Assembly: GCA_017502135.1 (NCBI GenBank)
Contig: JAFVVP010000001.1
Coordinates: 544-64,543 of the forward strand
Direction: 5' to 3'
DNA from: Clostridia bacterium
GTDB lineage: Bacteria; Bacillota; Clostridia; Oscillospirales; CAG-272
DNA: 64,000 nt
The position numbers and the translations under genes were made by a program. Of the stretch, positions 40,118-55,937 are shown piece after piece (positions within the stretch are counted from its first letter, which is position 1; every line of letters begins with the position of its first letter). A model generated the notes under the pieces. The model ran no database searches. It was given only the letters and a program-made list of their open reading frames with translations, and was not told the origin of the DNA.

Positions 40118-41344
40118 ATGAAAGAAATTGCAGTAATCGGCTTTGGCGTGGTAGGCGGCGGCGTCGTGTCTCTCGTTGACGAGAACCAAGAGCGCATCGC
40201 GCAGACGGCCGGAGATGCCGTGCACGTAAAATATATTCTCGATCTGAGAGATTTCCCCGATTCCCCCTACGCCGATCGCGTGATCCACGACGTGGACACG
40301 ATCATGAACGATCCGGAGATTGCCCTCGTCGTTGAGACGATGGGCGGTGTGCATCCGGCGCTCGAGTTTTCCACGGCTGCGCTTAAAGCGGGCAAGCACG
40401 TCATCACTTCCAATAAGGAGCTCGTGGCGAAGCACGGAGCGGAACTCATGCGTCTGGCAGACGAAAACGGTGTCGCCTATCTCTATGAGGCAAGCGTGGG
40501 CGGCGGTATTCCGCTGATCCGTTCCATCCGTACGAGCCTTGCCACCGACCGCGTGGATGCGATAAACGGTATTTTGAACGGTACGACGAACTACATCCTG
40601 ACCCGTATGCGCGACGGCGGTATCTCTTTCGATGAGGCACTCGCCGAAGCACAAGAACTCGGATATGCGGAAAAGGATCCATCCGCCGATATTCACGGCT
40701 TTGACGCACAGCGGAAGATCATGATTCTCGCCGCCGTCGCGACCGGCTATATCGCAGATGAAAACGACGTGTATGCCGAAACGATGTCAAAACTCACCAC
40801 CGCCGATATGGATGCGGCAAAGCGCCTCGGCGGTGCCGTGCGCCTCATTGGTTCGTTCAAGCGCGAGGCAGACGGCGTATCCGTCTTCGTATGCCCGCGT
40901 ATTGTGCCCGGAAAGAATCCGCTGGCACACGTGGATGACGTGTATAACGCGGCGTCCGTGGCGGCGGCTCTCACGGGAGATGTGATGTACTACGGCCGCG
41001 GTGCCGGTCGGTATCCGACCGCAGGAGCGGTTATCTCCGACGTGGCAGCTGCGCTGAACGGCTCGTACCGTACGGAATCGGTTAGAACGTGGGAGAACTC
41101 TCCCGCCGGATTTGTCAAAAAGTTCGCCGACAGCAAAAACCGTATGTACGTCCGCGTGAGCGGTGCATCCGTACAGGAGGTCATGGATGCTGCGCATCTC
41201 GTGTTCGGTGACGTTGCGGCTGTGCCCGGCACGCCCGCAGGGGTTTCGGAGTTCGTAACTTCTCTCATGACGGAGCGCCAGCTCAGTGAGGGCCTTTCCT
41301 CTCTGCCCGGCAAGGTGGAGTCGGCACTTCGTATACTTGATTGA
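40118..41344 (+). CDS. hom: Homoserine dehydrogenase
   Basis: IGFGVVGGGV NAD motif, ITSNKELVA, EASVGGGIPLI. Confidence 0.92.
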   Translation: MKEIAVIGFGVVGGGVVSLVDENQERIAQTAGDAVHVKYILDLRDFPDSPYADRVIHDVDTIMNDPEIALVVETMGGVHPALEFSTAALKAGKHVITSNKELVAKHGAELMRLADENGVAYLYEASVGGGIPLIRSIRTSLATDRVDAINGILNGTTNYILTRMRDGGISFDEALAEAQELGYAEKDPSADIHGFDAQRKIMILAAVATGYIADENDVYAETMSKLTTADMDAAKRLGGAVRLIGSFKREADGVSVFVCPRIVPGKNPLAHVDDVYNAASVAAALTGDVMYYGRGAGRYPTAGAVISDVAAALNGSYRTESVRTWENSPAGFVKKFADSKNRMYVRVSGASVQEVMDAAHLVFGDVAAVPGTPAGVSEFVTSLMTERQLSEGLSSLPGKVESALRILD

Positions 41345-41348
41345 AATA

Positions 41349-41388
41349 AAAAACGGTGGGAAAACCCCTGTGCCGATAAGACAGTAAT
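41349..41388. repeat. Left ~40-bp imperfect inverted repeat flanking the serine-recombinase element
   Basis: AAAAACGGTGGG-aaaaCCCCTGtgccga-TAAGACAGTAAT. Its reverse-complement partner is at 55040-55080 (outer 12 nt and inner 12 nt identical, central CCCTG shared). Confidence 0.75.
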
Positions 41389-41523
41389 CCGAAAAAACGA
41401 AATTTTTTACGGCATCTGTCTGACAGGGTTGGAAGCAAACAACACAAAAAGCACGATGTCGAGTCGAGAGACTTTGCATCGTGCTTTTTCCATCTCACCA
41501 ACTAATAACACGGAGGTACTATC

Positions 41524-41880
41524 ATGAATAACAATCTTACTTACACCCGCTGCGGCGATTATGAAATCCCGAACCTGACCTTATCCGAAACAGAAAATAA
41601 GCCTTTAGGCAAATACGGCAGAATGCGGAAGAAATATCTGCAGGAGCACAGGCCGGTACTGTGGAACAGCATGATCCTATCGGAGAAGCTGTATCCGCAT
41701 CTGAGGGAGATCGACGAAGCGGCGAATGCTCGGCTGGAGCAGATAATGCCCGAACTGATGAAGCGCAGCGGCGTGACGGAAAGTCTGAAAGCCAGCGATC
41801 CGATGAAGTGGACGGGACTGATGAATACTCTGAAAGCACAAGCAGAGGAAATTATTTTTGACGAACTGATTTATAACTGA
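41524..41880 (+). CDS. tnpV: Transposon-encoded TnpV-like protein
   Basis: LTYTRCGDYEIPNLTL...KPLGKYGRMRKKYLQEHRPVLWNSMILSEKLYPHLREIDE matches the TnpV family pattern. Confidence 0.8.
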   Translation: MNNNLTYTRCGDYEIPNLTLSETENKPLGKYGRMRKKYLQEHRPVLWNSMILSEKLYPHLREIDEAANARLEQIMPELMKRSGVTESLKASDPMKWTGLMNTLKAQAEEIIFDELIYN

Positions 41881-42571: not shown

Positions 42572-43315
42572 ATGATCAACATCGCAATTTGCGATGACGA
42601 GTTGTTATGGCTTGAAAGTACAGAGCAATTACTAAGAGAATACAGTGAGAGCACCGGTATCCCGATGAAGATACATACGTTTCTCTCTGCTTACGATATC
42701 ATAGAATATGTTGATGACAACGAGGATTTTGACCTTTATATTCTCGATGTGGTCATGCCGGAAAAGACCGGGATTCAGGTCGGAACATGGCTTCGCGAAG
42801 CAGACAAGCGGGGCTTGATCATCTACCTTACTACCTCAAAGGATTTCGCTCTGGACGCCTACGCCGTTCAGCCCTTCCACTATCTGCTCAAGCCTGTTGA
42901 ACGCGAAAGTCTTTTTGCGGTACTGGACAAGGCTGCGGCCATATTGACAGAGCGTGTCAATAAAGCAATCTGTGTCAAGAGCAAGAACGGCTCCTTGCGA
43001 ATCATGTTTGATGACATTGTGTATGTCGAGTATGTTGACCGTTGCAGCAATTTCCACTTAAAGAGCGGCGACATCGTTACCTCTACGCAGCAGCGCGTCT
43101 CTTTTGCCGACAGTATGCAGCCGCTTCTCAGTGATGAGAGATTTTTCCGCTGCGGAGCGAGCTTTGTTCTGAATCTGTATTACATATCGGCTGTTGATAA
43201 GGACGCCGTACACTTTCGCCATGTTCCCAATACTTTGTATTTGCCAAAAAACGCAAGCAGTGCTTTGACCTCTGCATGGTTTGATTATTGGATGGAGAGA
43301 GGAAACAACGTATGA
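42572..43315 (+). CDS. LytTR-family (AgrA/LytR-type) response regulator
   Basis: Receiver domain (DDE..., DLYILDVVMP) plus a C-terminal LytTR domain (ICVKSKNGSLRI..DDIVYVEY). Confidence 0.9.
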   Translation: MINIAICDDELLWLESTEQLLREYSESTGIPMKIHTFLSAYDIIEYVDDNEDFDLYILDVVMPEKTGIQVGTWLREADKRGLIIYLTTSKDFALDAYAVQPFHYLLKPVERESLFAVLDKAAAILTERVNKAICVKSKNGSLRIMFDDIVYVEYVDRCSNFHLKSGDIVTSTQQRVSFADSMQPLLSDERFFRCGASFVLNLYYISAVDKDAVHFRHVPNTLYLPKNASSALTSAWFDYWMERGNNV

Positions 43316-44595
43316 GTGAGATATTAAGACTGACCTCGGCGGCGTGGTCACTGTTTCATATTCTGATATTGTTCATGTTCTTTTACTCGCCGCGGTTTTC
43401 AAGAAAAAAGACTACGATTATTACCTGTGCCACAATGGTGCCGCTTGTGATCGTCAACGCATTGCTGCTGGTGCTGTTGGAACGGGCTGTCTACGGAAAG
43501 CTGATCTTATTATTGCTGGTCATTCCAAGCTTTGCGTTTTTCTTCTTCCTTGCAAAGCACCGGGATTTTCGTTTCGTGTTTACATTCTGCCTTGTGGATA
43601 CCATATCCGCAGAGTTGATTATCATTTCCATGCTCCTCAATCAGTACATAACTCCCGAAAGCAACATCGTAATGTTTGCTATCCGCATTTTGGGATTTCC
43701 TTTGGTGGAATACTTTGTCGTTAAAAAACTGCGTAAGCCGTATTTTGAAATTCAGAACAGTGTAAAGAAAGGATGGGGCACCTTTTCCCTTGTGTCGGTG
43801 ATATTCTATGTTCTGATTCTTGTGATGACTGCTTTCCCGACGGTAATAACCGAGCGTCCCAACGATATGCCCATTATGCTGATCTTCATGCTCCTGATGC
43901 CACTGATGTATCTGAATATTTTCCAGATACTCCATCATCAGAACAGGCTGAATACCGTTGAACGTGAGCAGGAATTGTGGCAGATACAGTCCTCGCATAT
44001 GCAGAAGCAGATCGCATCTATGGCCGAAGCGGATAAGCGGGTGAGCTGTGAACGACATGACATCCGACACCGGCTGCAGATCATCGATGTTATGCTGCAG
44101 AAAGGTGAGATAAAAGAAGCGAGAGAATTTATCAGCTCCACCCATGAAACACTGCAGGCTCCGACAGGGCTTGTCTACTGCAAGAATCCGGTTCTGGATG
44201 CTGTTTTCAGTTTCTATTTCAAACAGGCGCAGGATAAAGACATTCGTATCGAATCCACGCTGTCGATCTCCGAGGAACTTCCTGCAGACCCGTCGGAGCT
44301 GTCCATCGTCATAGCCAATGCGCTTGAGAATGCGATCCATGCCTGCGAGAAACTGCCGCAGGAAAAACGCGTGATCTCCTGCCGCTGCATTGAAAAGCCC
44401 CAGTTTATGCTGCAGATCAGAAATCCCTTCGATGGCGAGGTCAGGCTCGATGCGGAGGGCTTCCCCGTGACCGATGCCAAAGGCCACGGAATCGGGATTC
44501 GCTCCATTCGCTCCTTCTGCGAGAGGAACCATGCACAGGCTGAATTCAAGATCGAGGACAAGATGTTTGCCCTGCGTATTTTGATACAGAAATAA
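43312..44595 (+). CDS. AgrC-like multi-TM GHKL sensor histidine kinase
   Basis: ATGA overlap with the RR stop. About 6 TM helices. H-box ERHDIRHRL, N-box NALENAIHA, G-box GHGIGIRSI. Confidence 0.88.
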   Translation: MSEILRLTSAAWSLFHILILFMFFYSPRFSRKKTTIITCATMVPLVIVNALLLVLLERAVYGKLILLLLVIPSFAFFFFLAKHRDFRFVFTFCLVDTISAELIIISMLLNQYITPESNIVMFAIRILGFPLVEYFVVKKLRKPYFEIQNSVKKGWGTFSLVSVIFYVLILVMTAFPTVITERPNDMPIMLIFMLLMPLMYLNIFQILHHQNRLNTVEREQELWQIQSSHMQKQIASMAEADKRVSCERHDIRHRLQIIDVMLQKGEIKEAREFISSTHETLQAPTGLVYCKNPVLDAVFSFYFKQAQDKDIRIESTLSISEELPADPSELSIVIANALENAIHACEKLPQEKRVISCRCIEKPQFMLQIRNPFDGEVRLDAEGFPVTDAKGHGIGIRSIRSFCERNHAQAEFKIEDKMFALRILIQK

Positions 44596-45258: not shown

Positions 45259-48200
45259 ATGAAGAAACGGATTTTGAGCATTATTTTGAGTATCGTGATG
45301 CTCGTCGGCCTGCTGCCGACAACGGCGCTGGCGCTGCCTTCCCACAGCCACTGTGTCTGCGGCGGCAGCGTGACAGTGGGCGGTCATACTCACGAAAACA
45401 TCACTTCATGGGTGGCGTGGGACGGCACAGATGCAGATGCAAACACTGCCGACATCCAGCTGCCCGGCACCAATGTGTATTTAACCAATAACGTGTCACT
45501 TAACGATGATATTGCGATCACCGGTGCGGTAAACTTCTGCTTGAACGGGTACAAGATAGAGAGCAGTGCTTCTGTTTTCTCACTCGTCAACGGCGCAGCG
45601 CTGAGTATCTGCGATTGTTCGGCGAACAAGACCGGTGAACTCTCAGGGGTTGTATATTTATATTCTTCCTCTACCGTCAACCTTTACAGCGGCACGATCA
45701 CTTCCACCAGCTATGGCATTCATAGCAATGGTAATAATTCCATTGTAAACGTCTACGACGGTGTGATTACTGCCGCTAATAACGGCATCTACAACTACGG
45801 AAAAAATTCCGTCAATATTTATGGCGGCACAATTACCACAACCGGCAGCTCTCTCGACGCTGTATGTAACACAGACGGTACTGTAACCGTCAGCGGCGGC
45901 ACGATAAATGCCGGAAACGAAGGCATCTGCAATTACACGGGCACAGTTACCATCTCCGCCGGCAGCATCAGCGGCCAATATGGTATCAACAACAACCAAG
46001 GCACCGTTACCATTTCAGACGTGGCCACTGTCAGCGGAACCACCAGCGGCATCTTGAATAGTAAAACCCTCATTGTCAGCGGCGGTACCGTCAGCGGTGG
46101 CAGCTATGGCATCCAGAACTACAGCGTTTATAACAACGCAGATAAAATTGGCACCGTTGAGCTCAGCGGTGCGCCCGTGATCACCGGCACGATGGCGGAC
46201 ATCTATCTTGTAAACAACAAGGTTATCAACATCAGCGGTGCTCTCACTTACGGGGCTGCCAATGCCATCAGCGTAAAAATGGATTCCGTGGGCACCTTCA
46301 CCACCGGCTGGACAACCAAGATGGGCGATGCAGCTTACAGTAGCTATTTCACCTCCGCGATGGGCAGCTACACCGTTCAGAAGAACAACAGCGGCGAACT
46401 GAAGCTGGCGAAGCCTCCCGCCACCATCCCCGTCACCGGCGTGGAGCTGAGCGAGAGCAGCCTTATCCTTGACGTGGGCGACAGCGAAACTCTTACCGCT
46501 ACCGTCAGCCCCAATAACGCCACCAACAAGGCTGTGACTTGGGGTTCCAATAATGAATCTGTGGCGACAGTTGCAAACGGCGTTGTCACCGCAGTAAGCG
46601 AAGGCACGGCTACCATCACCGTCACCACTGCCGACGGCAGCTTCACCGCCACCTGCACTGTGAAGGTAGTGCCCGTACACGAGCATCACAACTGCGGTGT
46701 GGCGAACTGCACCAACGCTACCCATAACCACAGCGAAGTAAACGAGTGGATCAAGCTGACGAAGGAAAATATCGGTAGTTATGTGACAAAGTCCAGCTCC
46801 TCATATATACTCACCCCCGGCAGCTACTATCTGGGTGAGGATATTACCCTCTCGGATGTTGCCAATGACTGCACATTCATTTATATGAATGCCAGCGGAA
46901 CATACAATGTCTGCCTGAATGGCAATACAATTACCGGCTCCGGAAGCGCCCAGGTGTTTAGAGCGAATGACACCAATGCGGTTTTGAGCATCTGCGACTG
47001 CAGCGAGCCTTCCACCGGCAAGATCACCGGAGGAAAAAACGGCGGCGTGTATATTGATGACGGCACTGTGAACCTCTACGGCGGCAGCATCACCGGCAAC
47101 ACCGTTTATCAACAAGGAGCCGGTGTGTATGTGTCCTCCGGCACCTTTAACATGTACGGCGGAAGCATTTCCAACAACACCTTTACATCTAGCAGCGATC
47201 GCAAAGGCGGCGGTGTGTATGTGTCCTCCGGCACCTTTAATATGTACGGCGGTACAATTTCCGACCATGTATCCTCCAATGGCGGCGGTGTGTATGTGGC
47301 CTCCGGCACCTTCAATATGTCCGGTACTGCCGCAATCTCCGGCAACAGCGCTTCCAGTCAGGGCGGCGGTGTGTATGTGTATTCCGGCACCTTCACCATG
47401 ACCGGCGGCAAGATCACCGGCAACAACGCCAATAATAATAGCGGCGGTGTGCATAACCGGGGCGGCACGTTCAATGTGTCCGGCAGCCCTGTTGTCACGG
47501 ATAATACGGTTGGCACGGCTGAAAACAATATTTACTGCGCTAATGACATCACTATCATCGGCGCGCTGACCGCGGACGCACAGATCGGCGTAAATTATTC
47601 CTCCGAAAGGATATTTACCTCCGGTTGGACCGCTGCAATGGGCGAGTCCGAAACCGATTATGAAAAGTATTTCACCAGCGACAACTCCGGTTTTGAAATC
47701 GTTAAGAACGACAGCGGTGAACTGGAACTGAAGAAGCCTACCATTCCTGTCACCGACGTGGTGCTGGATAAGAGCAGCATCACCCTGGATGTGAACGGAA
47801 CTGCAGAACTTGCAGCAACCGTCCTTCCCGATGATGCCACGGATAAGACCGTGAGCTGGACTTCCTCTGATCCAACCGTGGCGAAGGTGGAAAACGGCAA
47901 GGTAACTGCCAAAAAGCCGGGTACGGCTACCATCACGGTCACGACCAATGACGGCAGCTTCACCGATACCTGCACCGTGACGGTCAATAAGATCGCCATC
48001 ACCGGTACGATTGTTGTCACCACAGTGACCGAGCCCAAGGTTGGAGAAACCTATTCCCCCAATGTTAACGTTTCTACAGACCTCACAACAGGTTATTATT
48101 CGATGTCTGCAAGCGACTTTTCTCCTTCCGCATCGAGTGATCCGGTCAAGGCTGGCACGGCCTATACACTGAGTGTTACTTTCCAACCGTCTAGTGGATA

Positions 48201-51200
48201 TTTCTTTGGTGAGAACATTCAAGCAACCTTCAATGGTGAAGCCGTAGAGATTACCCGCTTGGATATAGGCGGAACGATCTATCTTCAGATCGAGCACACC
48301 TATTCCTTCCCTGCCGCCGTGCCCAACAGCGTTGATATCCTCCGGAACGGAGCTCCTGCTGACACGGCATCCATCCTCCTGCCCGGCATCAATGAGAATG
48401 CTGCCACGATGGACTTTACCGCAAAGACTCTTGACCAGTACGGCCAGGAAATGACCGGTCAGACAGTCGCGTGGAGCATCACCGGCACCGACACCACCGG
48501 CATTTCTGTAACGGGCGGCGTGCTCACCGTCACCAAAGATGCCGCAGTGGGCAACTACACCCTCACCGCGACCTGCGATGGCAAGTCCGACAGCATTACG
48601 ATAAAGGTTGAAAAGGCGGAATCCGTCCTGACTACTGTTAAAATCTTCGATGGTGGTGGTGCGGGCAATGAGATCACAACGATTGACCGCACAATTCCTA
48701 ATGTGGGAAGCACACTTTACATCAACTCGGCAGCCAAAGGCTACGATCAGTACGGTGAACTAATGATCGGGCTGACGTTCACCTGGAGCAATACCAATAC
48801 AGACTCTGAGATAAGTCTTGTTGATGGCCATGTGACAATTGGCTCCGGTGCGCATGAAGGAAACTTTACTTACACAGCCTCCTGCAACGGCAAGAGCGCA
48901 ACGGTCACAGTGAACCTTACGAAAAAAATATACACCGTAACCTACACAGACAATGTTGCGAATGAAACTGTATTTGCTGATGTGTCTGAAACAGTACAGT
49001 CCGGTGGAACAGCACCGGCCTACCCCAATGGCACACCTTCAAGAACCGGCTATACCTTTGACGGTTGGTATACCAGCACGGATGGCGGCGCGACACTTTC
49101 TGCTTCGGCGTATGATTTTGATACTCCCGTGACCGGCAATCTGACGCTGTATGCAAAATGGACGCGTCAGGTATATACCATCAAGTTCGTGGACGAAGAT
49201 GGCACAGAGCTGCAGAGCAGCGAGGTTGCCTATGGTGAAACTCCCGTTTACAACGGTTCAACCCCCACCAAGGCCGCAACGGCTCAGTACACCTACACTT
49301 TCGCAGGCTGGACGCCTGAAATCGCTGCTGTCACCGGCGAAGCCACCTACACGGCCACCTACACCAGTACTGTCAACAAGTACACCATCAAGTTTGTAGA
49401 CGAAGATGGCACAGAGCTGCAGAGCGGCGAGGTTGCCTATGGTGAAACTCCCGTTTACAACGGTTCAACCCCCACCAAGGCCGCAACGGCTCAGTACACC
49501 TACACTTTCGCAGGCTGGACGCCTGAAATCGCTGCTGTTACCGGCGAAGCCACCTACACGGCCACCTACACCAGTACTGTCAACGAGTACACCGTCATCT
49601 TTGCAGATTGGAACGGTACGGAGCTTGACCGTCAGACAGTAGCCTACGGAAACGCAGCAACGACTCCCACTGCCCCCACCCGTACCGGCCATACCTTTAC
49701 CGGATGGGATAAGGCATTCGACGAGATTGTTGCGGATCTGACCGTTACGGCGCAGTACCGCATCAATCAGTACACCATCACATTTGATACCAATGGCGGT
49801 TCTGCTGTTGATTCCATCACGCAGGATTACAACACGGATGTTACAGCTCCTGCCGATCCCACCAAGATAGGATACGACTTTGGCGGCTGGCTGAAAGACG
49901 GAGATGACTTCACGTTTAACAGCTACAAGATGGGCGCAGAGAACTTTACGCTTATCGCAAAGTGGAATCCTGCCAATGGAACTGCCTACATGGTGAATCA
50001 TCATTTCCAGAATGTTGAAAACGATGAATACACCGTAGAACCCGAAACCAAACACGGCTATACCGACTCCGATACTGCGGCAGAATCCAAGTCCATTACC
50101 GGTTTTACCGCAGGCGTAGTCACCCAAAAGAAAATCGCTCCCGATGGTACTACTGTCATTGATATCTATTACACGCGCAACGTCCACACCCTGACCTTCA
50201 AGCCCGAAAACGGCGAGGAAAATATTGTTTCCGAGGTAAAATTCGGCGCAGCGATCACTACACCCGACGCTCCTGCAAAGACAGGATATACTTTCAAGGG
50301 TTGGGGTGAGGTTGCAGCAACAATGCCCGATGCAGATGTGACATATACTGCAGGCTGGACAATCAATCAGTACACCATCACGTTCAATTCCAACGGCGGT
50401 TCTGCTGTACCGGAGATCACGCAGGACTACAACACTGCTGTTGTGCAGCCTGAAAATCCCACCAAGACCGGATATGACTTCGGCGGTTGGTATGAAGATG
50501 CAGAGCTGACTACAGCGTATGTATTCAGCACCATGCCTGCAGAAAATATCACCGTATATGCCAAGTGGAATCCCGCAAACGGTATTGCCTACACGGTGAA
50601 GCACTACCATGAGGACGTTTCCGGCGATGGCTATACTCTGTATGAAACTGAAACTCTGCGCGGCACCACCAATGCACAGACCGCAGCAGAAGCAAAGAAT
50701 TATCCCGGCTTCACCGCACAGACGTTTGAGCAGACCACCATTCTCCCCGACGGCAGCGCAGTTGTGGAAATCAAGTATGACCGGAATATCTACTCGGTCA
50801 CACTTGTTACCAACGGCGGTACTGTCCGTGATGGCGATATTACCGAGTACACCTACGGTGTCGGCGCAAAACTCCCCACCGATGTCACAAGAAGCGGATA
50901 CCGGTTCGGCGGTTGGTATGATAACGAAGCCTGCAAGGGTACTCCTGTAACTGAGATCACAGCAACGGACATTGGCGACAAGACGTTCTATGCAAAGTGG
51001 GAGTACATCTACATCCCGATCATCACGCCTACCTATGATGTGGAGATCGCAGATGACATCACCGGCGGCGACGTGAGTGCAAGCAAGAAGCTGGCGTACA
51101 GAGGCGACACGATCACGATCACAGTTGTGCCCGATGCCGGTTACGAGCTTACAAAGTTGACCGTAACAGACAGCCGCGGCAATGCGGTTTCCGTGACCAA

Positions 51201-51882
51201 GGTAACCGACATCAAGTACACATTCAAGATGCCCGGTTATGATGTTGAGATCGACGCAGTGTTTGCAAAGATCGATACTACTTGCCCGCGCGACTGGACT
51301 TGCCCGATGTACGGCTACACTGATTTGGATAGAACGCTGTGGTATCACGATGGCATCCACTACTGCATTGAGCACGGTTTGATGGTTGGCACTGGCACGA
51401 ATATCTTTGAGCCGAATATCGCAACAAGCCGTGCCATGATCGTCACGATCCTATGGCGTCTGGAGGGCAGCCCCGTTGTGAACTACGCAATGGACTTTGA
51501 GGATGTTGCAGCCGGTCAGTGGTACACCGAAGCCATCCGCTGGGCAGCAAGCGAGAAGATCGTGGAAGGCTACGGCAACGGCAAGTTCGGTGCGAATGAC
51601 GCCATCACCCGTGAGCAGATGGTGACCATCATGTGGCGCTACGCCAAGTACAAGGGCTACGACGTTTCCGTTGGTGAGAACACCAACATTCTCTCCTACG
51701 ACGATGCCTTCGATGTGGCTGACTGGGCAATCCCCGCTATGCAGTGGGCTTGCGGCGAAAGTCTGGTTCAGGGCATTGCCGATGGCAGTAAGATGAACCT
51801 TGCTCCCCAGGGCAATGCAACCCGCGCACAGGCCGCAGCCATCCTGCAACGCTTCATCGAAAATGTCGTGAACGGGAAATAA
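45259..51882 (+). CDS. Giant (2207-aa) SLH-anchored cell-surface protein: two beta-helix modules, Big_2 domains, Listeria-Bacteroides-type repeats and three SLH domains
   Basis: Signal peptide MKKRILSIILSIVMLVGLLPTTALA. Big_2 blocks (VTGVELSESSL..TATVSP.NATNKAVTWGS). Many TGYTFDGWY...LYAKW repeats. C-terminal SLH (FEDVAAGQWYTEAIRWAA.., ITREQMVTIMWRY). Confidence 0.95.
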   Translation: MKKRILSIILSIVMLVGLLPTTALALPSHSHCVCGGSVTVGGHTHENITSWVAWDGTDADANTADIQLPGTNVYLTNNVSLNDDIAITGAVNFCLNGYKIESSASVFSLVNGAALSICDCSANKTGELSGVVYLYSSSTVNLYSGTITSTSYGIHSNGNNSIVNVYDGVITAANNGIYNYGKNSVNIYGGTITTTGSSLDAVCNTDGTVTVSGGTINAGNEGICNYTGTVTISAGSISGQYGINNNQGTVTISDVATVSGTTSGILNSKTLIVSGGTVSGGSYGIQNYSVYNNADKIGTVELSGAPVITGTMADIYLVNNKVINISGALTYGAANAISVKMDSVGTFTTGWTTKMGDAAYSSYFTSAMGSYTVQKNNSGELKLAKPPATIPVTGVELSESSLILDVGDSETLTATVSPNNATNKAVTWGSNNESVATVANGVVTAVSEGTATITVTTADGSFTATCTVKVVPVHEHHNCGVANCTNATHNHSEVNEWIKLTKENIGSYVTKSSSSYILTPGSYYLGEDITLSDVANDCTFIYMNASGTYNVCLNGNTITGSGSAQVFRANDTNAVLSICDCSEPSTGKITGGKNGGVYIDDGTVNLYGGSITGNTVYQQGAGVYVSSGTFNMYGGSISNNTFTSSSDRKGGGVYVSSGTFNMYGGTISDHVSSNGGGVYVASGTFNMSGTAAISGNSASSQGGGVYVYSGTFTMTGGKITGNNANNNSGGVHNRGGTFNVSGSPVVTDNTVGTAENNIYCANDITIIGALTADAQIGVNYSSERIFTSGWTAAMGESETDYEKYFTSDNSGFEIVKNDSGELELKKPTIPVTDVVLDKSSITLDVNGTAELAATVLPDDATDKTVSWTSSDPTVAKVENGKVTAKKPGTATITVTTNDGSFTDTCTVTVNKIAITGTIVVTTVTEPKVGETYSPNVNVSTDLTTGYYSMSASDFSPSASSDPVKAGTAYTLSVTFQPSSGYFFGENIQATFNGEAVEITRLDIGGTIYLQIEHTYSFPAAVPNSVDILRNGAPADTASILLPGINENAATMDFTAKTLDQYGQEMTGQTVAWSITGTDTTGISVTGGVLTVTKDAAVGNYTLTATCDGKSDSITIKVEKAESVLTTVKIFDGGGAGNEITTIDRTIPNVGSTLYINSAAKGYDQYGELMIGLTFTWSNTNTDSEISLVDGHVTIGSGAHEGNFTYTASCNGKSATVTVNLTKKIYTVTYTDNVANETVFADVSETVQSGGTAPAYPNGTPSRTGYTFDGWYTSTDGGATLSASAYDFDTPVTGNLTLYAKWTRQVYTIKFVDEDGTELQSSEVAYGETPVYNGSTPTKAATAQYTYTFAGWTPEIAAVTGEATYTATYTSTVNKYTIKFVDEDGTELQSGEVAYGETPVYNGSTPTKAATAQYTYTFAGWTPEIAAVTGEATYTATYTSTVNEYTVIFADWNGTELDRQTVAYGNAATTPTAPTRTGHTFTGWDKAFDEIVADLTVTAQYRINQYTITFDTNGGSAVDSITQDYNTDVTAPADPTKIGYDFGGWLKDGDDFTFNSYKMGAENFTLIAKWNPANGTAYMVNHHFQNVENDEYTVEPETKHGYTDSDTAAESKSITGFTAGVVTQKKIAPDGTTVIDIYYTRNVHTLTFKPENGEENIVSEVKFGAAITTPDAPAKTGYTFKGWGEVAATMPDADVTYTAGWTINQYTITFNSNGGSAVPEITQDYNTAVVQPENPTKTGYDFGGWYEDAELTTAYVFSTMPAENITVYAKWNPANGIAYTVKHYHEDVSGDGYTLYETETLRGTTNAQTAAEAKNYPGFTAQTFEQTTILPDGSAVVEIKYDRNIYSVTLVTNGGTVRDGDITEYTYGVGAKLPTDVTRSGYRFGGWYDNEACKGTPVTEITATDIGDKTFYAKWEYIYIPIITPTYDVEIADDITGGDVSASKKLAYRGDTITITVVPDAGYELTKLTVTDSRGNAVSVTKVTDIKYTFKMPGYDVEIDAVFAKIDTTCPRDWTCPMYGYTDLDRTLWYHDGIHYCIEHGLMVGTGTNIFEPNIATSRAMIVTILWRLEGSPVVNYAMDFEDVAAGQWYTEAIRWAASEKIVEGYGNGKFGANDAITREQMVTIMWRYAKYKGYDVSVGENTNILSYDDAFDVADWAIPAMQWACGESLVQGIADGSKMNLAPQGNATRAQAAAILQRFIENVVNGK
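49174..49587 (+). repeat. Near-identical 2 x 207-bp tandem duplication inside the giant gene
   Basis: 49174-49380 versus 49381-49587 differ at only a handful of bases. They encode YTIKFVDEDGTELQS(S/G)EVAYGETPVYNGSTPTKAATAQYTYTFAGWTPEIAAVTGEATYTATYTSTVN twice. Confidence 0.9.
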
Positions 51883-51927: not shown

Positions 51928-52440
51928 TTTCCTCGTAAATATCAAAAAGCGCCGGAACGGTGCGCAGCCATATTTCCACGCAATCAGATTCATTGATTGC
52001 GGAGAAATTGTTAAAGAGTTTGGGATGTTGCTGGGCAAGGAAAACGGAGTTTTCGCCTGTGTGTATATACACAGGCATTGCTTGCGGGTATTGTAAAATG
52101 GCCGCAAGCGCATCGAGGCGCCCCGATGCATTGCTTGCCAAGTATGAAATCTATATTTTCGTACTTCGGCAAGCTGCATATTTCTCCCAAAATGGATAAA
52201 GGTGGGCAAGCACTTCTGTGCCTTGCCCACCTTGTCTGCCACATAGCGAAACTGCCGGGCGCTGCGGGTGGCGGCGAAGCCGTTCATCTTGACCATTAAC
52301 TGTGTCCGGCAGATTTGCTACTCACTTTCGGTTATGCGCTTAAATTGTAAATTCCTTTTGAATTATGTAAATTTGCCGTTGAGTAATTGAGACTGTTATG
52401 ATATAATAATACCAGCAGAAATGAAAAGAGGTGTACCGTA

Positions 52441-52827
52441 TTGGAATCGGAATTTGAAGTTATGAGAAAGAGAATACGGGAGCTTCGCGAGACTGCCGGT
52501 CTTTCTCAAAACAGACTTGGCAAGCTTGCAGGAATACAGCAGGCCAGCATCAATCGCTATGAACACGGACAGGCTGTTCCGTCACCAAAAGCGCTCCTGT
52601 GGTATGCGGAATACTTCGATGTTTCGCTGGATTACCTTTTCGGCAGAACAGACAGCCCTCACGGTATTCGGTATCCGTACAAACGAGATCATAAACCCGT
52701 TGATGAGAAAACACAGAAAGTCGTTGACCTGTGTTTTGACGAAAACTCTCCCGTCCGCGAAAAGCTGAAAGAAGCACTTGTGGGAATATTGGGAGATGCC
52801 ATGTGGGAGGAAAATGAACATGAGTGA
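52441..52827 (+). CDS. XRE-family HTH transcriptional regulator
   Basis: LRETAGLSQNRLGKLAGIQQASINRYEHG. TTG at 52441 has RBS GAGGTG 7 nt upstream (alternative ATG at 52462). Confidence 0.8.
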   Translation: MESEFEVMRKRIRELRETAGLSQNRLGKLAGIQQASINRYEHGQAVPSPKALLWYAEYFDVSLDYLFGRTDSPHGIRYPYKRDHKPVDEKTQKVVDLCFDENSPVREKLKEALVGILGDAMWEENEHE

Positions 52828-53113
52828 TCAGAAACGAAATGAAGGAATGAAGGAAGAATTAGAAAACACCCACGCTGACGATCTGGAAGAAACTGAAGAA
52901 GTCATCGTGTTCACCAAGGAAGAATTTGAAGCACTCATGGCAGAAGAAGGTATCGACGAAGAGGAAGAAGATGCAGAAGAAATTCCTGTGTTCGCTTTCA
53001 CCAATTCCGATCCGTATGCCAAGATGGAGCCCCGTCCCGATGACGCACCCAAGCGCGATGTTTCCTTTGATGAAAAGGGTAACATCGTAGTCAAAAACCC
53101 GTCAGCCTTCTGA
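52820..53113 (+). CDS. Acidic hypothetical protein, ending at a TGA that is in frame with the downstream TnpW-like segment
   Basis: RBS GGGAGG. Very acidic (EEGIDEEEEDAEE). The frame continues after the TGA at 53111-53113. Confidence 0.55.
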   Translation: MSDQKRNEGMKEELENTHADDLEETEEVIVFTKEEFEALMAEEGIDEEEEDAEEIPVFAFTNSDPYAKMEPRPDDAPKRDVSFDEKGNIVVKNPSAF

Positions 53114-53269
53114 CTCCCCGAAATTAAAATCGTGGATGAGGTCGGCGGCACGGAATACACCGTAACCGGCAGCTATGAGGGAACAGAAACCCTCAATAAA
53201 AAGCTCAAACGCATTATGGAGCATAACGCTGCCAACGACAATTCCGATATCACGGAGGATAGCGAATGA
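53114..53269 (+). CDS. TnpW-like segment (no own ATG; possible GTG at 53132), same frame as the preceding ORF
   Basis: LPEIKIVDEVGGTEYTVTGSYEGTETLNKKLKRIM resembles small transposon TnpW-type proteins. The stop overlaps the recombinase ATG (ATGA). Confidence 0.35.
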   Translation, partial: LPEIKIVDEVGGTEYTVTGSYEGTETLNKKLKRIMEHNAANDNSDITEDSE

Positions 53270-55008
53270 AAGACGAATCCTCTTTTGATATAGATAACAA
53301 AACCAACCCTGTTCAGACAGTTGCCCCTACCAACAAGGAGGAAAACGAAATGTTAGGAGCAACAGACAAAATCACAGCACTTTATTGCAGACTGTCCGTA
53401 GAGGACACGAAAGACGACAAGAAAAAAGGCAATGAAGATCCGTCGGATTCCATTCAGCATCAACAACTCATGTTAATGCAGTATGCCAAATCCAATCGCT
53501 TCCCGAATCCCACGGTTTTCATCGATGACGGCTTCTCCGGAGTAACCTATGACCGTCCCGGCTTTCAGAAAATGATGGCTGAGATTGAAGCGGGCAATGT
53601 GAGTACAGTCATTACGAAAGACTTATCCCGCCTTGGTCGTAACTCAGCACTGACGGGACTGTACATCAACTACACATTCCCGCAGTACGGTGTTCGGTAT
53701 ATCGCCGTCAACGATCACTTCGACACCATCAATCCCAACAGCACCGACAGCGATATGGCAGGTATCCGCAACTGGTTCAATGAGTTTTTTGCAAAGGATA
53801 CCAGCCGAAAAATCCGCGCGGTCAACAAGGCAAAGGGCGAACGTGGAGAACGGCTGACCGTGAATGTTCCCTATGGGTACAAAAGCGATCCCGATGATAA
53901 AACCAAGTGGATCATTGATGAAGAAGCGGCAGGCGTAGTCAAAAGAATCTTCTCCCTCTGTATGGAGGGCAAAGGACCAAGCCAGATCGCCGCACTGCTT
54001 GAAAAGGAAAAGGTACTGAACCCTACCGCATACAAACAGCGTGAGGGCAGAAAGACACCGCATCAGACACCGGAGAACGAGTACCGCTGGCATGAAAGTA
54101 CCGTTGCTTACATTCTCGAATATATGGAGTACACCGGGTGTACGGTCAATTTCAAAACCTACACCAACTCCATTTGGGACAAGAAGCAGCGTGAGACACC
54201 GGTGGAGAACCGCAAGGTCTTCTACAACACCCATCCGGCAATCATTTCTCTGGAGGTATTCGATAAGGTGCAGGAAATCCGACAGCAGCGGCATCGCAGA
54301 ACGGCAACAGGAAAGAGCAGTATGTTCTCCGGCGTGGTATTCTGTGACGACTGCAAGCAGAAACTCTACTACTCCACCACCGGCTACTTTGAGAAACGGC
54401 AGGACTTCTTCATCTGCTCCACCCATCGGGTGAACAAGGATAAGTGCAGCGGGCACTATATCCGTGAAGTTGTACTGGAACGCGAGGTCTGGAAACACGT
54501 ACAGGAAGTGATCTCGGTGGTCACCCGGTATGAAGCCTATTTCCGTTCTGAGATGGAACAGAAACTCCGGTTACAGAGCGAGGAAAAGCTGCGGGTAGCA
54601 AAGAAGCGAATGGCACAGGCTGAGAAGCGTATCGGAGAACTTGATCGGTTGTTCCTCCGCAGTTATGGGGACAATGTATCGGGCAAGATCGATGATGAAC
54701 GCTTTGCCATGATGAACCGAAACTACACGGAAGAACAGAAAAAACTCAAAGAAGAAGTCATCAGTCTGCATCAGGAAATTGAAGAACAGGAACGCAAGGC
54801 AGAAGATTTGGAACAGTTTATCCAGAGGGTAAAGAGAAACAGTGAGCTGACTGAACTCACGCCCTATGCGCTGCATGAACTTGTCAAGGCAGTCTATGTA
54901 GAAGCGCCAGATAAGTCCAGCGGCAAGAGAAAGCAGAAGATTCACATCTGCTATGATCTTGTAGGATTTATCCCCGTGGATATTCTCGCAAAAGCAGAAC
55001 AGGCATGA
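53266..55008 (+). CDS. Large serine recombinase (TnpX-like; resolvase catalytic domain, recombinase domain, zinc ribbon, coiled coil, DUF4368-like tail)
   Basis: ALYCRLSVEDT (catalytic Ser), VITKDLSRLGRN, CDDCKQKLYY...CSTH zinc ribbon, C-terminal LTELTPYALHELVKAVYVE. RBS GGAGGA. Confidence 0.92.
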   Translation: MKDESSFDIDNKTNPVQTVAPTNKEENEMLGATDKITALYCRLSVEDTKDDKKKGNEDPSDSIQHQQLMLMQYAKSNRFPNPTVFIDDGFSGVTYDRPGFQKMMAEIEAGNVSTVITKDLSRLGRNSALTGLYINYTFPQYGVRYIAVNDHFDTINPNSTDSDMAGIRNWFNEFFAKDTSRKIRAVNKAKGERGERLTVNVPYGYKSDPDDKTKWIIDEEAAGVVKRIFSLCMEGKGPSQIAALLEKEKVLNPTAYKQREGRKTPHQTPENEYRWHESTVAYILEYMEYTGCTVNFKTYTNSIWDKKQRETPVENRKVFYNTHPAIISLEVFDKVQEIRQQRHRRTATGKSSMFSGVVFCDDCKQKLYYSTTGYFEKRQDFFICSTHRVNKDKCSGHYIREVVLEREVWKHVQEVISVVTRYEAYFRSEMEQKLRLQSEEKLRVAKKRMAQAEKRIGELDRLFLRSYGDNVSGKIDDERFAMMNRNYTEEQKKLKEEVISLHQEIEEQERKAEDLEQFIQRVKRNSELTELTPYALHELVKAVYVEAPDKSSGKRKQKIHICYDLVGFIPVDILAKAEQA

Positions 55009-55026
55009 CCGTAATCATGCCTGTTC
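54997..55026. other. Perfect 12-bp hairpin GAACAGGCATGA-ccgtaa-TCATGCCTGTTC spanning the recombinase stop codon
   Basis: Exact inverted repeat about 15 nt inside the right end of the element. Confidence 0.7.
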
Positions 55027-55039
55027 TATCAAAATTCAT

Positions 55040-55080
55040 ATTACTGTCTTACCAGCAGGGAGCAAAAACCCACCGTTTTT
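55040..55080. repeat. Right ~41-bp imperfect inverted repeat flanking the serine-recombinase element
   Basis: ATTACTGTCTTA-ccagCAGGGagcaaaaa-CCCACCGTTTTT is the reverse-complement partner of 41349-41388. Confidence 0.75.
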
Positions 55081-55085
55081 ATTTC

Positions 55086-55937
55086 TTATTTCACCCGGGG
55101 ACAGCCGGAGAGTGCCGCGCCGATCACCGGCCCGAACTGGGAACGCTCGGGAATGAGGAAGTTCATATCGAACATCTTGTTGAGCGAGTCGAAAACCTCC
55201 GGCGCGTGTTCCACGCTCGTCAGGTTGCCGGTCAGAACGATATCGCGGATGCCGTGATTGCGCGCGGCGAATATCGCCACCATACCGATCGTTTCGAACA
55301 CCAGATTGATGATGCCGAGCGCGATGTCCGATTTTGTCGTGATGTCGCTCACGTTGGCAAAGTTGGAGGCGGTCATCGTATCGGAGAAGCCGGGCACGAT
55401 ATCCACCTTCGTCAGATCGCTGATCTTTAGATCCACGCGGCCGAGATCGCCCTCGCGTGCGAGCTCTTCGATGTGGCGGATGTCATCCATGCCGAGCATC
55501 TTTTTGGATAGACCCATGAGCGTACCGCCGCCCACACCCGTGCCGCCGAGGTACTGCGGCTCTTCGCCGCGGCGGGCGTGCACCAGTGCCGTTCCCGTGC
55601 CGAGGCTTGCGACGATCGCGCGTTCAAGGCCGGAGAGATACAGACCGCCAAGGCCGATGCACCGGAATTCCGGCATCACCTCACAGGGCAGGGAGTAGAT
55701 CGGACGCTGTATGTAGGACGAGCCTACGCCCGTGATCATTACTTTTTCGATATCGGTGAGCGAAAGGCCGTTCAAATCGGTGAACTTGCCGAACGCACCG
55801 TAGATAGACGTAATGGGGTCCGTCGCACGCACGAACAAAGGCTCAATCAGGCGGCGGTCGCCGTCCGTAATGTCAAATCCGCCGATTTTGGTGGTGCTGC
55901 CGCCGACGTCAATGCCGACGATAACGCGCTTACTCAT
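55086..55937 (-). CDS. coaW: Type II pantothenate kinase
   Basis: VGIDVGGSTTKI, SLGTGTAL, GGTGVGGGTLMGL and DLKISDL resemble Staphylococcus-type CoaW. Confidence 0.8.
   Translation of the reverse strand: MSKRVIVGIDVGGSTTKIGGFDITDGDRRLIEPLFVRATDPITSIYGAFGKFTDLNGLSLTDIEKVMITGVGSSYIQRPIYSLPCEVMPEFRCIGLGGLYLSGLERAIVASLGTGTALVHARRGEEPQYLGGTGVGGGTLMGLSKKMLGMDDIRHIEELAREGDLGRVDLKISDLTKVDIVPGFSDTMTASNFANVSDITTKSDIALGIINLVFETIGMVAIFAARNHGIRDIVLTGNLTSVEHAPEVFDSLNKMFDMNFLIPERSQFGPVIGAALSGCPRVK

What the first reader, a model, noticed from the sequence alone, without database searches (positions are those of the whole stretch)
41349..41388. A ~40-bp imperfect inverted repeat brackets the 13.7-kb serine-recombinase element and looks like a split hom/coaW terminator
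**Seen.** The left sequence is AAAAACGGTGGG aaaaCCCCTG tgccga TAAGACAGTAAT (41349-41388). The reverse complement of the right sequence (55040-55080) is AAAAACGGTGGG tttttgctCCCTG ctgg TAAGACAGTAAT. The outer 12 nt and the inner 12 nt are identical and the centre is partly conserved.

The outer arms abut the hom stop (41344) on one side and the coaW stop (55086) on the other. Joined together, they would form an A-run / GGTGGG...CCCACC / T-run bidirectional terminator.

**Established.** Large serine recombinases act on short, imperfectly palindromic attB/attP sites. After integration, attL and attR each combine one B-type and one P-type half-site. This predicts exactly that the outer halves will be mutually inverted and the inner halves mutually inverted.

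**Inference.** The element (tnpV … tnpX-like) integrated into the loop of the hom/coaW terminator. The crossover lies around 41361-41376 and 55052-55068.
Basis: partly seen in the sequence, partly recalled or inferred. Interest (0 to 1): 0.6.

Follow-up and report, generated by a model that had tools for sequence, protein, structure and literature searches.

The report
Serine-recombinase element splitting a terminator loop
A 13.7-kb mobile element moved by a large serine recombinase sits exactly in the loop of the terminator hairpin shared by the hom and pantothenate-kinase genes; the element is of a known kind, but its relatives land in terminator hairpins almost everywhere, so terminators seem to be their general landing site.

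Summary
The two ~40-nt sequences (41349-41388; 55040-55080) are attL and attR of a 13,703-bp element that ends in a DUF4368-type large serine recombinase (LSR).

A sister species (hom 95% identical) has the uninterrupted site: hom stop, AAAAACGGTGGG-AAAG-CCCACCGTTTTT, coaW stop. The outer 12-mers are therefore the two halves of a bidirectional intrinsic terminator. The inner 12-mers are the ends of a 52-bp pseudo-palindromic attP.

The crossover lies in the loop, most likely at AA 41362-63 / 55065-66.

The pattern holds across the clade:
- 54 of 60 distinct right junctions of LSRs 68-99% identical are followed by a T-run (12.6% of random 25-mers).
- 20 of 22 paired ends show the same dinucleotide at positions 26-27 from both ends, 19 of them rebuilding a clear hairpin.
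- All 21 pairs put in register have the crossover in the apical loop.
- A second empty site confirms this for a 77%-identical element.

This fits the published "multi-targeting" DUF4368 clade (A-rich / TT or AA core / T-rich motif). The element is a new member of a known kind.

No excised form was found. A conserved small gene upstream of the LSR carries a nonsense mutation here.

The parts
40118..41344 (+). hom (homoserine dehydrogenase), left flanking host gene
   Evidence: Pfam Homoserine_dh 4.6e-58 and NAD_binding_3. Orthologues are 71-95% identical in 12 congeners.
41349..41388 (+). attL. B half-site is 41349-41361 (A-run plus 5' stem of the host terminator). The inferred crossover AA is at 41362-41363. 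The P' half-site is 41364-41388 (CCCCTGTGCCGA + TAAGACAGTAAT).
   Evidence: The B half is contiguous with B' in the empty site of G004. The P' arm is conserved in 24 related left ends.
41409..41433 (+). Conserved subterminal motif ACGGCATCTGTCTGACAGGGTTGG. It is an inverted partner of AGACAG in the P' arm and resembles the P-arm outer motif CTGTCTTA. Possibly an accessory binding site.
   Evidence: Present in all 24 left ends found with the regex. It lies in the only left-end DNA conserved between elements, 41365-41433. It pairs with 41379-84 in the fold.
41446..41494 (.). Element-borne hairpin with A-run and T-run. It is the first terminator-like structure that hom transcripts meet after the split host terminator.
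   Evidence: Inverted repeat I2. Strong stem followed by UUUUU in the RNA fold of 41342-41490 (z -7.4 for the whole stretch).
41524..41880 (+). tnpV homologue
   Evidence: Pfam TnpV PF14198 1.6e-42, full length. phrog_24764. It is absent from the one small relative whose ORFs were read (L091), so it may not be universal.
42572..44595 (+). Cargo: LytTR response regulator (42572-43315) and GHKL histidine kinase (43288-44595)
   Evidence: Pfam Response_reg, LytTR, HATPase_c_5. No DNA similarity to the 11 small related elements compared.
45259..51882 (+). Cargo: 2207-aa surface protein (Big_2, six Listeria-Bacteroides repeats, SLH anchor)
   Evidence: Pfam Flg_new 8e-83, Big_2, SLH. No DNA similarity to the 11 small related elements compared.
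52227..52323 (.). About 95 nt of DNA conserved (76-83%) in 10 of the 11 related elements compared. Function unknown; there is no Rfam match.
   Evidence: blastn of 11 related elements against the window element. Rfam negative.
52441..52827 (+). XRE-type HTH regulator
   Evidence: Pfam HTH_3 1.4e-13. NCBIfam RstR-like, below cut-off.
52778..53269 (+). Small acidic protein gene. It overlaps the LSR start (ATGA at 53266-53269) and is interrupted here by TGA at 53111-53113, where 32 of 33 relatives have TGG (Trp).
   Evidence: No Pfam, PHROG or NCBIfam family.
53266..55008 (+). Large serine recombinase, 580 aa, DUF4368 type, with an intact YCRLSVED serine motif
   Evidence: Pfam Resolvase 7e-20, Recombinase 2e-20, Zn_ribbon_recom 1e-12, DUF4368 1e-19. 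Translation. Homologues 68-99% identical at 60 distinct right junctions from 64 loci.
54996..55027 (.). 13-bp perfect hairpin across the LSR stop codon, conserved in all relatives. On the minus strand it is followed by GCUUUUG, so it is the first terminator-like structure met by coaW transcripts.
   Evidence: I23. Conserved sequence. Folds.
55040..55080 (+). attR. The P half-site is 55040-55064 (ATTACTGTCTTA + CCAGCAGGGAGC + A). The inferred crossover AA is at 55065-55066. The B' half-site is 55067-55080 (3' stem plus T-run of the host terminator).
   Evidence: The P arm is conserved in 60 distinct right ends. B' is contiguous with B in G004.
55086..55937 (-). coaW-type (type II) pantothenate kinase, right flanking host gene
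   Evidence: Pfam Fumble. NCBIfam PRK13317 type II pantothenate kinase 9e-69, 231.9 bits against a cut-off of 234.

Best explanation
The two sequences are attL and attR of a 13,703-bp integrative element. The element was inserted by its own DUF4368-type large serine recombinase (53266-55008) into the apical loop of the bidirectional intrinsic terminator shared by the convergent genes hom and coaW.

Shown:
- The outer 12-mers are host DNA, the two stem halves with their A-run and T-run.
- The inner 25 nt on each side are element DNA.
- Joined, the inner parts give a 52-bp pseudo-palindromic attP: ATTACTGTCTTACCAGCAGGGAGC-A-AA-A-CCCCTGTGCCGATAAGACAGTAAT. That is two 25-bp half-sites around a 2-bp crossover, the geometry of characterised LSR attP sites.

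Inferred mechanism:
- LSR dimers bind attP.
- LSR dimers also bind the palindromic terminator. Its half-site is a central dinucleotide, about 8 G/C-rich bp, then a T-run at +10 to +15.
- The two complexes synapse. The enzyme makes 2-nt staggered cuts at the central dinucleotide (AA here, TT in most relatives), rotates the subunits and religates.
- This leaves hybrid attL and attR without a target duplication.

The same behaviour is seen throughout the clade, so terminators in general are the landing sites, not this locus. The element carries inward-facing terminator-like hairpins at both ends (41446-41494; 54996-55027). They probably replace the split host terminator and insulate the element.
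For: Empty site in sister species G004: hom stop, then AATAAAAAACGGTGGGAAAGCCCACCGTTTTTATTTC, then coaW stop. The hairpin terminator is also uninterrupted in G003 and G006.

Domain architecture Resolvase/Recombinase/Zn_ribbon/DUF4368.

Composite repeat: 2 hits in the window against 0 in 100 shuffles.

Related LSRs (61-98% identical in same-family genomes, 68-99% in public assemblies) always carry ATTACTGTYTTA about 30 nt after the stop.

Of 60 distinct right junctions, 54 have a T4+ run within 25 nt of the crossover, against 12.6% of random 25-mers. T frequency is 75-92% at +10 to +15, and +2 to +8 is G/C-rich without sequence conservation.

Of 22 paired ends, 20 show the same dinucleotide at positions 26-27 from both outer ends, and 19 of those rebuild a clear A-run/stem/loop/stem/T-run hairpin.

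Once the mis-paired L139 junction is corrected, 21 pairs can be put in register. All 21 have the crossover in the apical loop. Median fold energy is -18.9 kcal/mol. Seventeen of 21 are at or below -16, against 7.7% of random 46-mers.

Shared junction identity is only 2 nt in 7 pairs.

A second, independent empty site: for the 77%-identical G203 element, congeners G391, G424 and G425 have the intact hairpin AAAAAAAGTGCCGACA-CAA-TGTCGGCACGTTTTTTTT.

LSRs 98-100% identical (window, L086, G003:C83) sit at three different terminators.

Literature: the DUF4368 clade is 'multi-targeting', with a TT core and A/T-rich flanks. Cp36 in human cells prefers an A-rich 5' region, an AA core and a T-rich 3' region (PMC10083194). 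LSR attP half-sites are 25 bp (PMC3783163).
Against: No excised or circular form was seen. The predicted attP joint pattern gave 0 hits in 401 genomes of the family, in IMG/VR and in JGI metagenome contigs.

The exact crossover cannot be read from sequence, because the junctions share AAAACCC. With the clade-wide register the ancestral loop would be AAAAA (5 nt), whereas the sister species has AAAG (4 nt). So one base is unaccounted for.

Exceptions in the clade:
- L089 flanks have A/T runs but no stem.
- L145 differs at the dinucleotide.
- The G021 flanks are not complementary.

The conserved small gene overlapping the LSR start is broken by a nonsense codon in this copy, so present-day mobility is uncertain.

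Enzyme preference and purifying selection for harmless sites are not separated by genome data alone.
Confidence: 0.9

Rival explanations
1. The 40-nt repeats are terminal inverted repeats of a DDE-type transposon, and the shared AAAACCC is a 7-bp target-site duplication.
For: In the window alone AAAACCC is a direct repeat at both junctions (41361-67; 55065-71). The empty site of G004 would be compatible with a 7-bp duplication.
Against: None of the 11 ORFs scanned in or beside the element has a DDE or transposase domain. The only recombinase is an LSR.

The outer 12-mers are host DNA, contiguous in the empty site, not element ends.

In related elements the shared junction identity varies from 2 to 10 nt and is only 2 nt in 7 of 21. 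A fixed duplication would not behave this way.
Confidence: 0.02
2. The LSR is site-specific for this hom/coaW locus, like a classical phage integrase with one attB. The terminator nature of the site is incidental.
For: The outer arms form a well-defined 28-bp palindrome, as many LSR attB sites do.
Against: LSRs 98-100% identical sit next to three different flanks (window, L086, L122).

Sixty distinct right flanks were found for LSRs 68-99% identical, with no conserved stem sequence.

Three congeners with the same hom/coaW terminator are empty, while G003 carries two related elements elsewhere.
Confidence: 0.03
3. The recombinase inserts almost anywhere with a matching central dinucleotide. The excess of terminator loops is produced by selection, because only insertions between convergent genes survive. 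It is not an enzyme preference.
For: Multi-targeting LSRs are described as having relaxed specificity (PMC10083194). Intergenic insertions are the least harmful.
Against: Selection for intergenic sites would not place the crossover inside the 3-6-nt apical loop in 21 of 21 pairs. It would not fix the T-run at +10 to +15 either.

Cp36, a member of the same DUF4368 clade, shows an A-rich / AA / T-rich motif in human cells, where bacterial selection is absent.
Confidence: 0.1

Closest known systems
Multi-targeting DUF4368 clade of large serine recombinases (Durrant et al. 2022, PMC10083194; includes the TndX-like subfamily and Cp36, Pc01, Enc9)
   Same: Same domain set including DUF4368. Near-identical enzymes occur at many different sites. 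The target motif is an A-rich 5' side, a TT or AA core and a T-rich 3' side.
   Different: The paper describes the motif only as A/T-rich with relaxed specificity. The words 'terminator' and 'palindrom' do not occur in it. Here the natural targets are complete bidirectional intrinsic terminators with the crossover in the loop. Identity of this LSR to Cp36 was not measured.
Tn4451/Tn4453 (TnpX) of Clostridium perfringens / C. difficile, and related C. difficile elements such as Tn6104 (PMC3158075)
   Same: A TnpV homologue plus a TnpX-like large serine recombinase placed at an element end. A 2-bp crossover without duplication, and integrative elements of 4-14 kb carrying cargo.
   Different: No Mob/TnpZ relaxase and no resistance gene were found among the scanned ORFs. 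From my own knowledge, Tn4451 uses a GA crossover; here it is AA or TT. tnpV and the recombinase lie at opposite ends. The cargo is a LytTR two-component system and a giant SLH surface protein. Sequence identity to TnpX itself was not measured. The best plasmid-borne DUF4368 proteins are about 43-45% identical.
A118/LI-type serine integrase att-site architecture (Rutherford et al. 2013, PMC3783163)
   Same: Pseudo-palindromic attP with 25-bp half-sites around a central dinucleotide. The AT-rich outer element of attB lies about 4-5 bp closer to the centre than the outer motif of attP (T-run from about +10 against TAAGACAGTAAT from +14).
   Different: The outer motifs of attP (TAAGACAGTAAT) and attB (T-run) are not the same sequence shifted by 5 bp, as they are in LI. 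attB is a class of sites, not one locus.
Other mobile elements that home to intrinsic terminators (for example bacterial class C group II introns; my own knowledge, not checked here)
   Same: They use a ubiquitous, harmless intergenic structure as a landing site.
   Different: The chemistry is entirely different. This is double-strand serine recombination on duplex DNA, not RNA-guided reverse splicing downstream of a hairpin.

Membership tests
Large serine recombinase (serine integrase/transposase) | N-terminal resolvase-type catalytic domain with the serine nucleophile | tested here: met
   Pfam Resolvase PF00239 7.2e-20, residues 38-195. The motif ALYCRLSVED is present in the translation.
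Large serine recombinase (serine integrase/transposase) | C-terminal Recombinase domain plus zinc-ribbon domain | tested here: met
   PF07508 2.2e-20 and PF13408 1.1e-12.
Large serine recombinase (serine integrase/transposase) | Conservative exchange at a 2-bp crossover with no target duplication. attL and attR are hybrids of pseudo-palindromic attP and attB. | tested here: met
   The empty site equals the joined outer arms. Shared junction identity is down to 2 nt in 7 of 21 related pairs. The reconstructed attP has 25+2+25 bp. Cleavage chemistry itself is not testable here.
Large serine recombinase (serine integrase/transposase) | Demonstrated recombination activity or an excised circular form | tested here: inconclusive
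   The attP joint pattern was not found in 401 genomes, IMG/VR or metagenome contigs.
Multi-targeting DUF4368 LSR clade | DUF4368 domain at the C-terminus | tested here: met
   PF14287 9.8e-20, residues 504-569.
Multi-targeting DUF4368 LSR clade | Closely related enzymes integrated at many unrelated sites | tested here: met
   Sixty distinct right flanks for LSRs 68-99% identical. Three different flanks within the 98-100% group.
Multi-targeting DUF4368 LSR clade | Target motif with an A-rich side, a TT/AA core and a T-rich side | tested here: met
   Position table. Core dinucleotides are TT (16 pairs), TA (2), TC (2) and AA (the window pair), as listed. Published motif.
Tn4451/Tn4453 family sensu stricto | tnpV homologue | tested here: met
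   PF14198 1.6e-42.
Tn4451/Tn4453 family sensu stricto | Mobilisation gene (tnpZ/Mob) with an oriT (RSA) site | tested here: not met
   No relaxase or Mob domain in any of the ORFs scanned. An oriT cannot be excluded in the conserved 52227-52323 segment.
Tn4451/Tn4453 family sensu stricto | GA crossover dinucleotide (from my own knowledge of the literature) | tested here: not met
   The crossover here is AA, and TT/TA/TC in relatives.
DDE transposon with terminal inverted repeats | DDE transposase gene and a fixed-length target-site duplication | tested here: not met
   No such domain. Junction identity is variable, 2-10 nt. The outer arms are host DNA.

The most novel reading that the evidence does not exclude
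This clade of DUF4368 serine recombinases, and probably a much wider set down to about 40% identity, has evolved to recognise bidirectional intrinsic terminators as a generic attB. The recognised form would be A-run, G/C-rich stem of any sequence, loop with TT or AA, stem, T-run. This would give the elements a harmless landing pad in any Firmicute genome, with orientation set only by the loop dinucleotide. The elements would compensate for the split terminator with inward-facing terminators of their own. That would explain the published 'A-rich / core / T-rich' motif of multi-targeting LSRs. It would also predict their integration sites from terminator maps.
Probability: 0.7. Interest if true: 0.6.

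Novelty: new member of a known kind. Interest (0 to 1): 0.45.

Why it matters
For this genome the result gives base-precise borders of a 13.7-kb island. The island brought in a LytTR two-component system and a 2207-aa S-layer-anchored surface protein. The result also shows that the island is a recent arrival, absent from three congeners.

More generally, it turns the vaguely described "A/T-rich" target motif of multi-targeting DUF4368 recombinases into a concrete rule that can be tested: they land in the loop of bidirectional terminators.

If that rule holds, three things follow:
- Insertion sites of a very common class of gut-Clostridia mobile elements become predictable.
- It explains how these elements spread across families without disrupting genes.
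- It is useful for people who engineer these enzymes as integration tools.

Tried and rejected
- **attP joint pattern:** CCAGCAGRGRGC-N5-11-TGTGCCGATAAGACAGTAAT gave 0 hits in 401 genomes of the family, in viral contigs and in metagenome contigs.
- **Conspecific empty or filled sites:** the search with ACTTGATTGAAATAAAAAACGGTGGG in metagenome contigs gave 0 hits. The exact ancestral loop (AAAA or AAAAA) therefore stays open.
- **Empty site for the G003:C55/C53 element:** the flank has no homologue in congeners.
- **Rfam:** a search of the whole element gave nothing at E <= 0.1.
- **Literature:** searches for serine recombinases or integrases targeting terminators found no paper describing this.
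- **Simple terminator scan:** it did not call the split arms or the two element-end hairpins. Their terminator role rests on folds and is an inference.
- **Rejected explanations:** the DDE-TIR, single-locus attB and chance-repeat explanations were considered and rejected (see rivals).
- **G021:C36:** its left and right flanks are not complementary. It is a 5.5-kb contig, and I could not decide between misassembly, rearrangement and a non-hairpin target.

Full report
**1. Observation**

Searches show the quoted sequences at the stated coordinates.
- Left: AAAAACGGTGGG-AAAACCCCTGTGCCGA-TAAGACAGTAAT (41349-41388). It starts 5 nt after the hom stop (TGA 41342-44).
- Right: ATTACTGTCTTA-CCAGCAGGGAGCAAAAA-CCCACCGTTTTT (55040-55080). 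It ends 5 nt before the stop of the minus-strand pantothenate-kinase gene (55086-88).

The repeat finder lists both 12-nt arms (I1 and I24). A lone 12-mer inverted repeat is not unusual in 14.5 kb. The composite pattern, however, occurs exactly twice in the window, once per strand, and never in 100 shuffles. The inner 12-mer is unique to the two junctions.

**2. What lies between and beside the repeats**

The flanking genes are:
- hom: Pfam Homoserine_dh;
- a type II pantothenate kinase: Fumble; NCBIfam PRK13317, 231.9 bits against a cut-off of 234.

Between the repeats, in order, lie:
- a TnpV homologue;
- a LytTR response regulator and a GHKL kinase;
- a 2207-aa Big_2 / Listeria-Bacteroides-repeat / SLH surface protein;
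- an XRE regulator;
- a small acidic ORF;
- a 580-aa large serine recombinase (LSR) with Resolvase, Recombinase, Zn_ribbon_recom and DUF4368 domains.

No DDE transposase or relaxase domain was found. G+C is lower at the two ends of the insert (0.43-0.49 against 0.55-0.57 in the flanks).

**3. The empty site**

A search with the 3' end of hom in relatives found G004, of the same genus, 95% identical. There the hom stop is followed by AATAAAAAACGGTGGGAAAGCCCACCGTTTTTATTTC and then the coaW stop.

The two outer 12-mers of the window are therefore contiguous host DNA. Together they form a 6-bp G/C stem extended by A:U pairs, with a 4-nt loop (-18.6 kcal/mol, z -4.0). Preceded by an A-run and followed by a T-run, this is a bidirectional intrinsic terminator for two convergent genes. 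G003 and G006 also have an uninterrupted hairpin terminator at this place.

The only deviation is that the spacer is 37 bp rather than 70-80 bp.

**4. att sites and crossover**

attL and attR share AAAACCC (41361-67; 55065-71), so sequence alone does not fix the cut.

Related elements do. Counting from the outer motif, the dinucleotide at positions 26-27 of attR equals that at positions 27-26 of attL in 20 of the 22 pairs first examined. After the mis-paired L139 junction is corrected, this holds in 21 of 22 pairs: TT 16, TA 2, TC 2, AA in the window. The neighbouring bases often differ.

This gives:
- attP of 25 + 2 + 25 bp: ATTACTGTCTTACCAGCAGGGAGC-A-AA-A-CCCCTGTGCCGATAAGACAGTAAT;
- the crossover at 41362-63 / 55065-66;
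- an element of 13,703 bp.

A 25-bp half-site is what was found for the A118-type integrase (PMC3783163).

One base is unaccounted for. This register predicts an ancestral AAAAA loop, whereas G004 has AAAG. G004 is another species, and G006 has a 5-nt loop. No conspecific empty site could be found.

**5. Relatives**

In 201 genomes of the same family, 61 have an LSR hit at E <= 1e-100. A scan of public genomes gave 64 loci, almost all 68-99% identical. They come from gut Oscillospiraceae, Lachnospiraceae, Erysipelotrichaceae, Christensenellaceae and Anaerovoracaceae MAGs, and from three cultured strains.

All have the same layout after the LSR stop: a conserved hairpin, ATTACTGTYTTA, a 12-nt P arm, then unrelated sequence.

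Across 60 distinct right junctions:
- the P arm is nearly invariant to position 24;
- position 26 is T in 85%;
- positions +2 to +8 after the crossover are G/C-rich without a consensus;
- positions +10 to +15 are T in 75-92%;
- 54 of 60 have a T4+ run within 25 nt, against 12.6% of random 25-mers from the same loci.

For 22 elements both ends were available. In 20 of them the dinucleotide matches at both ends, and 19 of those rebuild a clear A-run/stem/loop/stem/T-run hairpin. With the corrected L139 junction, 21 pairs can be put in register:
- the crossover lies in the apical loop in 21 of 21;
- median fold energy is -18.9 kcal/mol;
- 17 of 21 are at or below -16, against 7.7% of random 46-mers.

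Shared junction identity is only 2 nt in 7 pairs. That fits a 2-bp serine-recombinase crossover and excludes a fixed target duplication.

LSRs 98-100% identical (window; L086, from a sheep-colon MAG; G003:C83) lie at three different terminators.

**6. A second independent empty site**

For the 5.4-kb element of G203 (LSR 77% identical), the congeners G391, G424 and G425 carry the uninterrupted hairpin AAAAAAAGTGCCGACA-CAA-TGTCGGCACGTTTTTTTT, or GGAA as the loop. It sits exactly where G203 has the element.

**7. More distant homologues**

Homologues 40-48% identical show the same layout downstream of the stop: hairpin, ACT..CCTTA-like motif, about 12 G/C-rich nt, then a stem half and a T-run.

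Two cases share an identical element end joined to two different T-run flanks (L042/L043 and L036/L039). The borders were not defined there, so this is suggestive only.

**8. Mechanism**

Shown: the borders, the empty site, the recombinase type and the class of targets.

Inferred: dimers of the LSR bind the pseudo-palindromic attP and the palindromic terminator duplex. They cut with a 2-nt stagger at the loop dinucleotide, rotate and religate. Orientation is fixed by the non-palindromic AA or TT.

The stems differ in sequence, while the A/T runs sit at a fixed distance. The enzyme therefore probably reads the runs and the G/C-rich character rather than a specific stem. Bidirectional terminators are simply the commonest sequences that offer this on both half-sites.

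An intrinsic preference, rather than selection alone, is supported in two ways. The crossover is placed precisely in the loop. In addition, the DUF4368 enzyme Cp36, tested in human cells, prefers an A-rich 5' region, an AA core and a T-rich 3' region (PMC10083194).

**9. Consequence for the host genes (inference)**

After insertion, the hom transcript meets only a weak residual hairpin in attL. The first strong hairpin with a U-run is the element's own, at 41446-41494.

The coaW transcript reads through attR into the 13-bp hairpin over the LSR stop (55027-54996). On that strand the hairpin is followed by GCUUUUG. That hairpin is conserved in all relatives.

The simple consensus scan did not call either hairpin.

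**10. State of this copy**

The LSR is intact and both att sites match the family consensus.

The small acidic ORF that overlaps the LSR start is continuous in 32 of 33 relatives. Here it has TGA in place of the Trp codon (53111-13). It has no known family.

No excised form was detectable, and reads could not be examined. Whether the element can still move is open.

**11. Comparison with what is known**

The element belongs to the TnpX/TndX-like, DUF4368 "multi-targeting" LSR clade (PMC10083194). It resembles Tn4451-type and C. difficile Tn6104-type elements in having TnpV and an end-located LSR with a 2-bp crossover (PMC3158075).

It lacks a Mob gene and a resistance gene, and it uses AA rather than GA.

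Four literature searches found no paper that describes terminators as the natural targets. The key paper does not use the word.

Four earlier follow-ups in this scan reached the same reading for other genomes. I treat them as agreeing leads, not as evidence. The claim was tested here on independent loci.

**12. Verdict**

- The element is a new member of a known kind.
- The clade-wide terminator rule is the part worth following up.

Noticed in passing
window 52778-53269 (stop at 53111-53113): The small acidic ORF that overlaps the LSR start (ATGA at 53266-53269) is continuous in 32 of 33 related elements (…VVKNPSAFWLP…GGTEYTVTGSYEGTETL…). In the window it carries TGA instead of the Trp codon. 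It has no Pfam, PHROG or NCBIfam family. It is strongly conserved next to this LSR type, which makes it a candidate accessory or directionality factor. It is broken here.
   Followed up: partly
window 41409-41433 (with 41379-41384): The subterminal motif ACGGCATCTGTCTGACAGGGTTGG is conserved in all 24 left ends examined. Its CTGTCT is an inverted partner of AGACAG in the P' arm, and it resembles the P-arm outer motif CTGTCTTA. It may be a third recombinase or accessory-protein binding site.
   Followed up: partly
window 52227-52323 and 52003-52029: Two short DNA segments are shared with related elements that carry entirely different cargo. The first is 76-83% identical in 10 of the 11 relatives compared; the second is about 96% identical in 2 of them. 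There is no Rfam match and no convincing ORF. Candidates are an oriT, a promoter/operator, or a remnant of a gene.
   Followed up: partly
window 54996-55027: A perfect 13-bp hairpin spans the LSR stop codon. Its sequence is conserved even in LSR relatives of 61-87% protein identity. It is followed by a U-run only on the antisense strand.
   Followed up: partly
window attP core; L086 and L122 (G003:C83): The window lineage (LSRs 98-100% identical) has AAA at positions 25-27 and an AA crossover. Nearly all other elements have C/T-TT. How an element changes its central dinucleotide from TT to its complement AA is unexplained.
   Followed up: no
L109 positions 3949 and 6306: The same left junction, with an identical 38-nt host flank plus the P' arm, occurs twice, 2357 bp apart, on one contig. 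This is either a tandem partial duplication or an assembly artefact.
   Followed up: no
L082 (G021:C36, a 5.5-kb contig): The left and right flanks of a 4.3-kb related element both have A/T runs, but their stems are not complementary (AAAAAAGCTGCCC / GACGGACTTTTATTTT). Possible causes are a rearrangement between copies, misassembly, or a non-hairpin target.
   Followed up: no
plasmid records CP123681.1, NZ_MG288680.1 and others: An identical-scoring DUF4368 protein, 43% identical to this LSR, sits on large plasmids of Salmonella, Klebsiella, Enterobacter and Citrobacter. A relative of this Firmicute recombinase type has therefore entered Enterobacteriaceae plasmids.
   Followed up: no
G000:C9:65618-67159: The same genome has a second large serine recombinase, 30% identical to this one. 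It was not examined.
   Followed up: no
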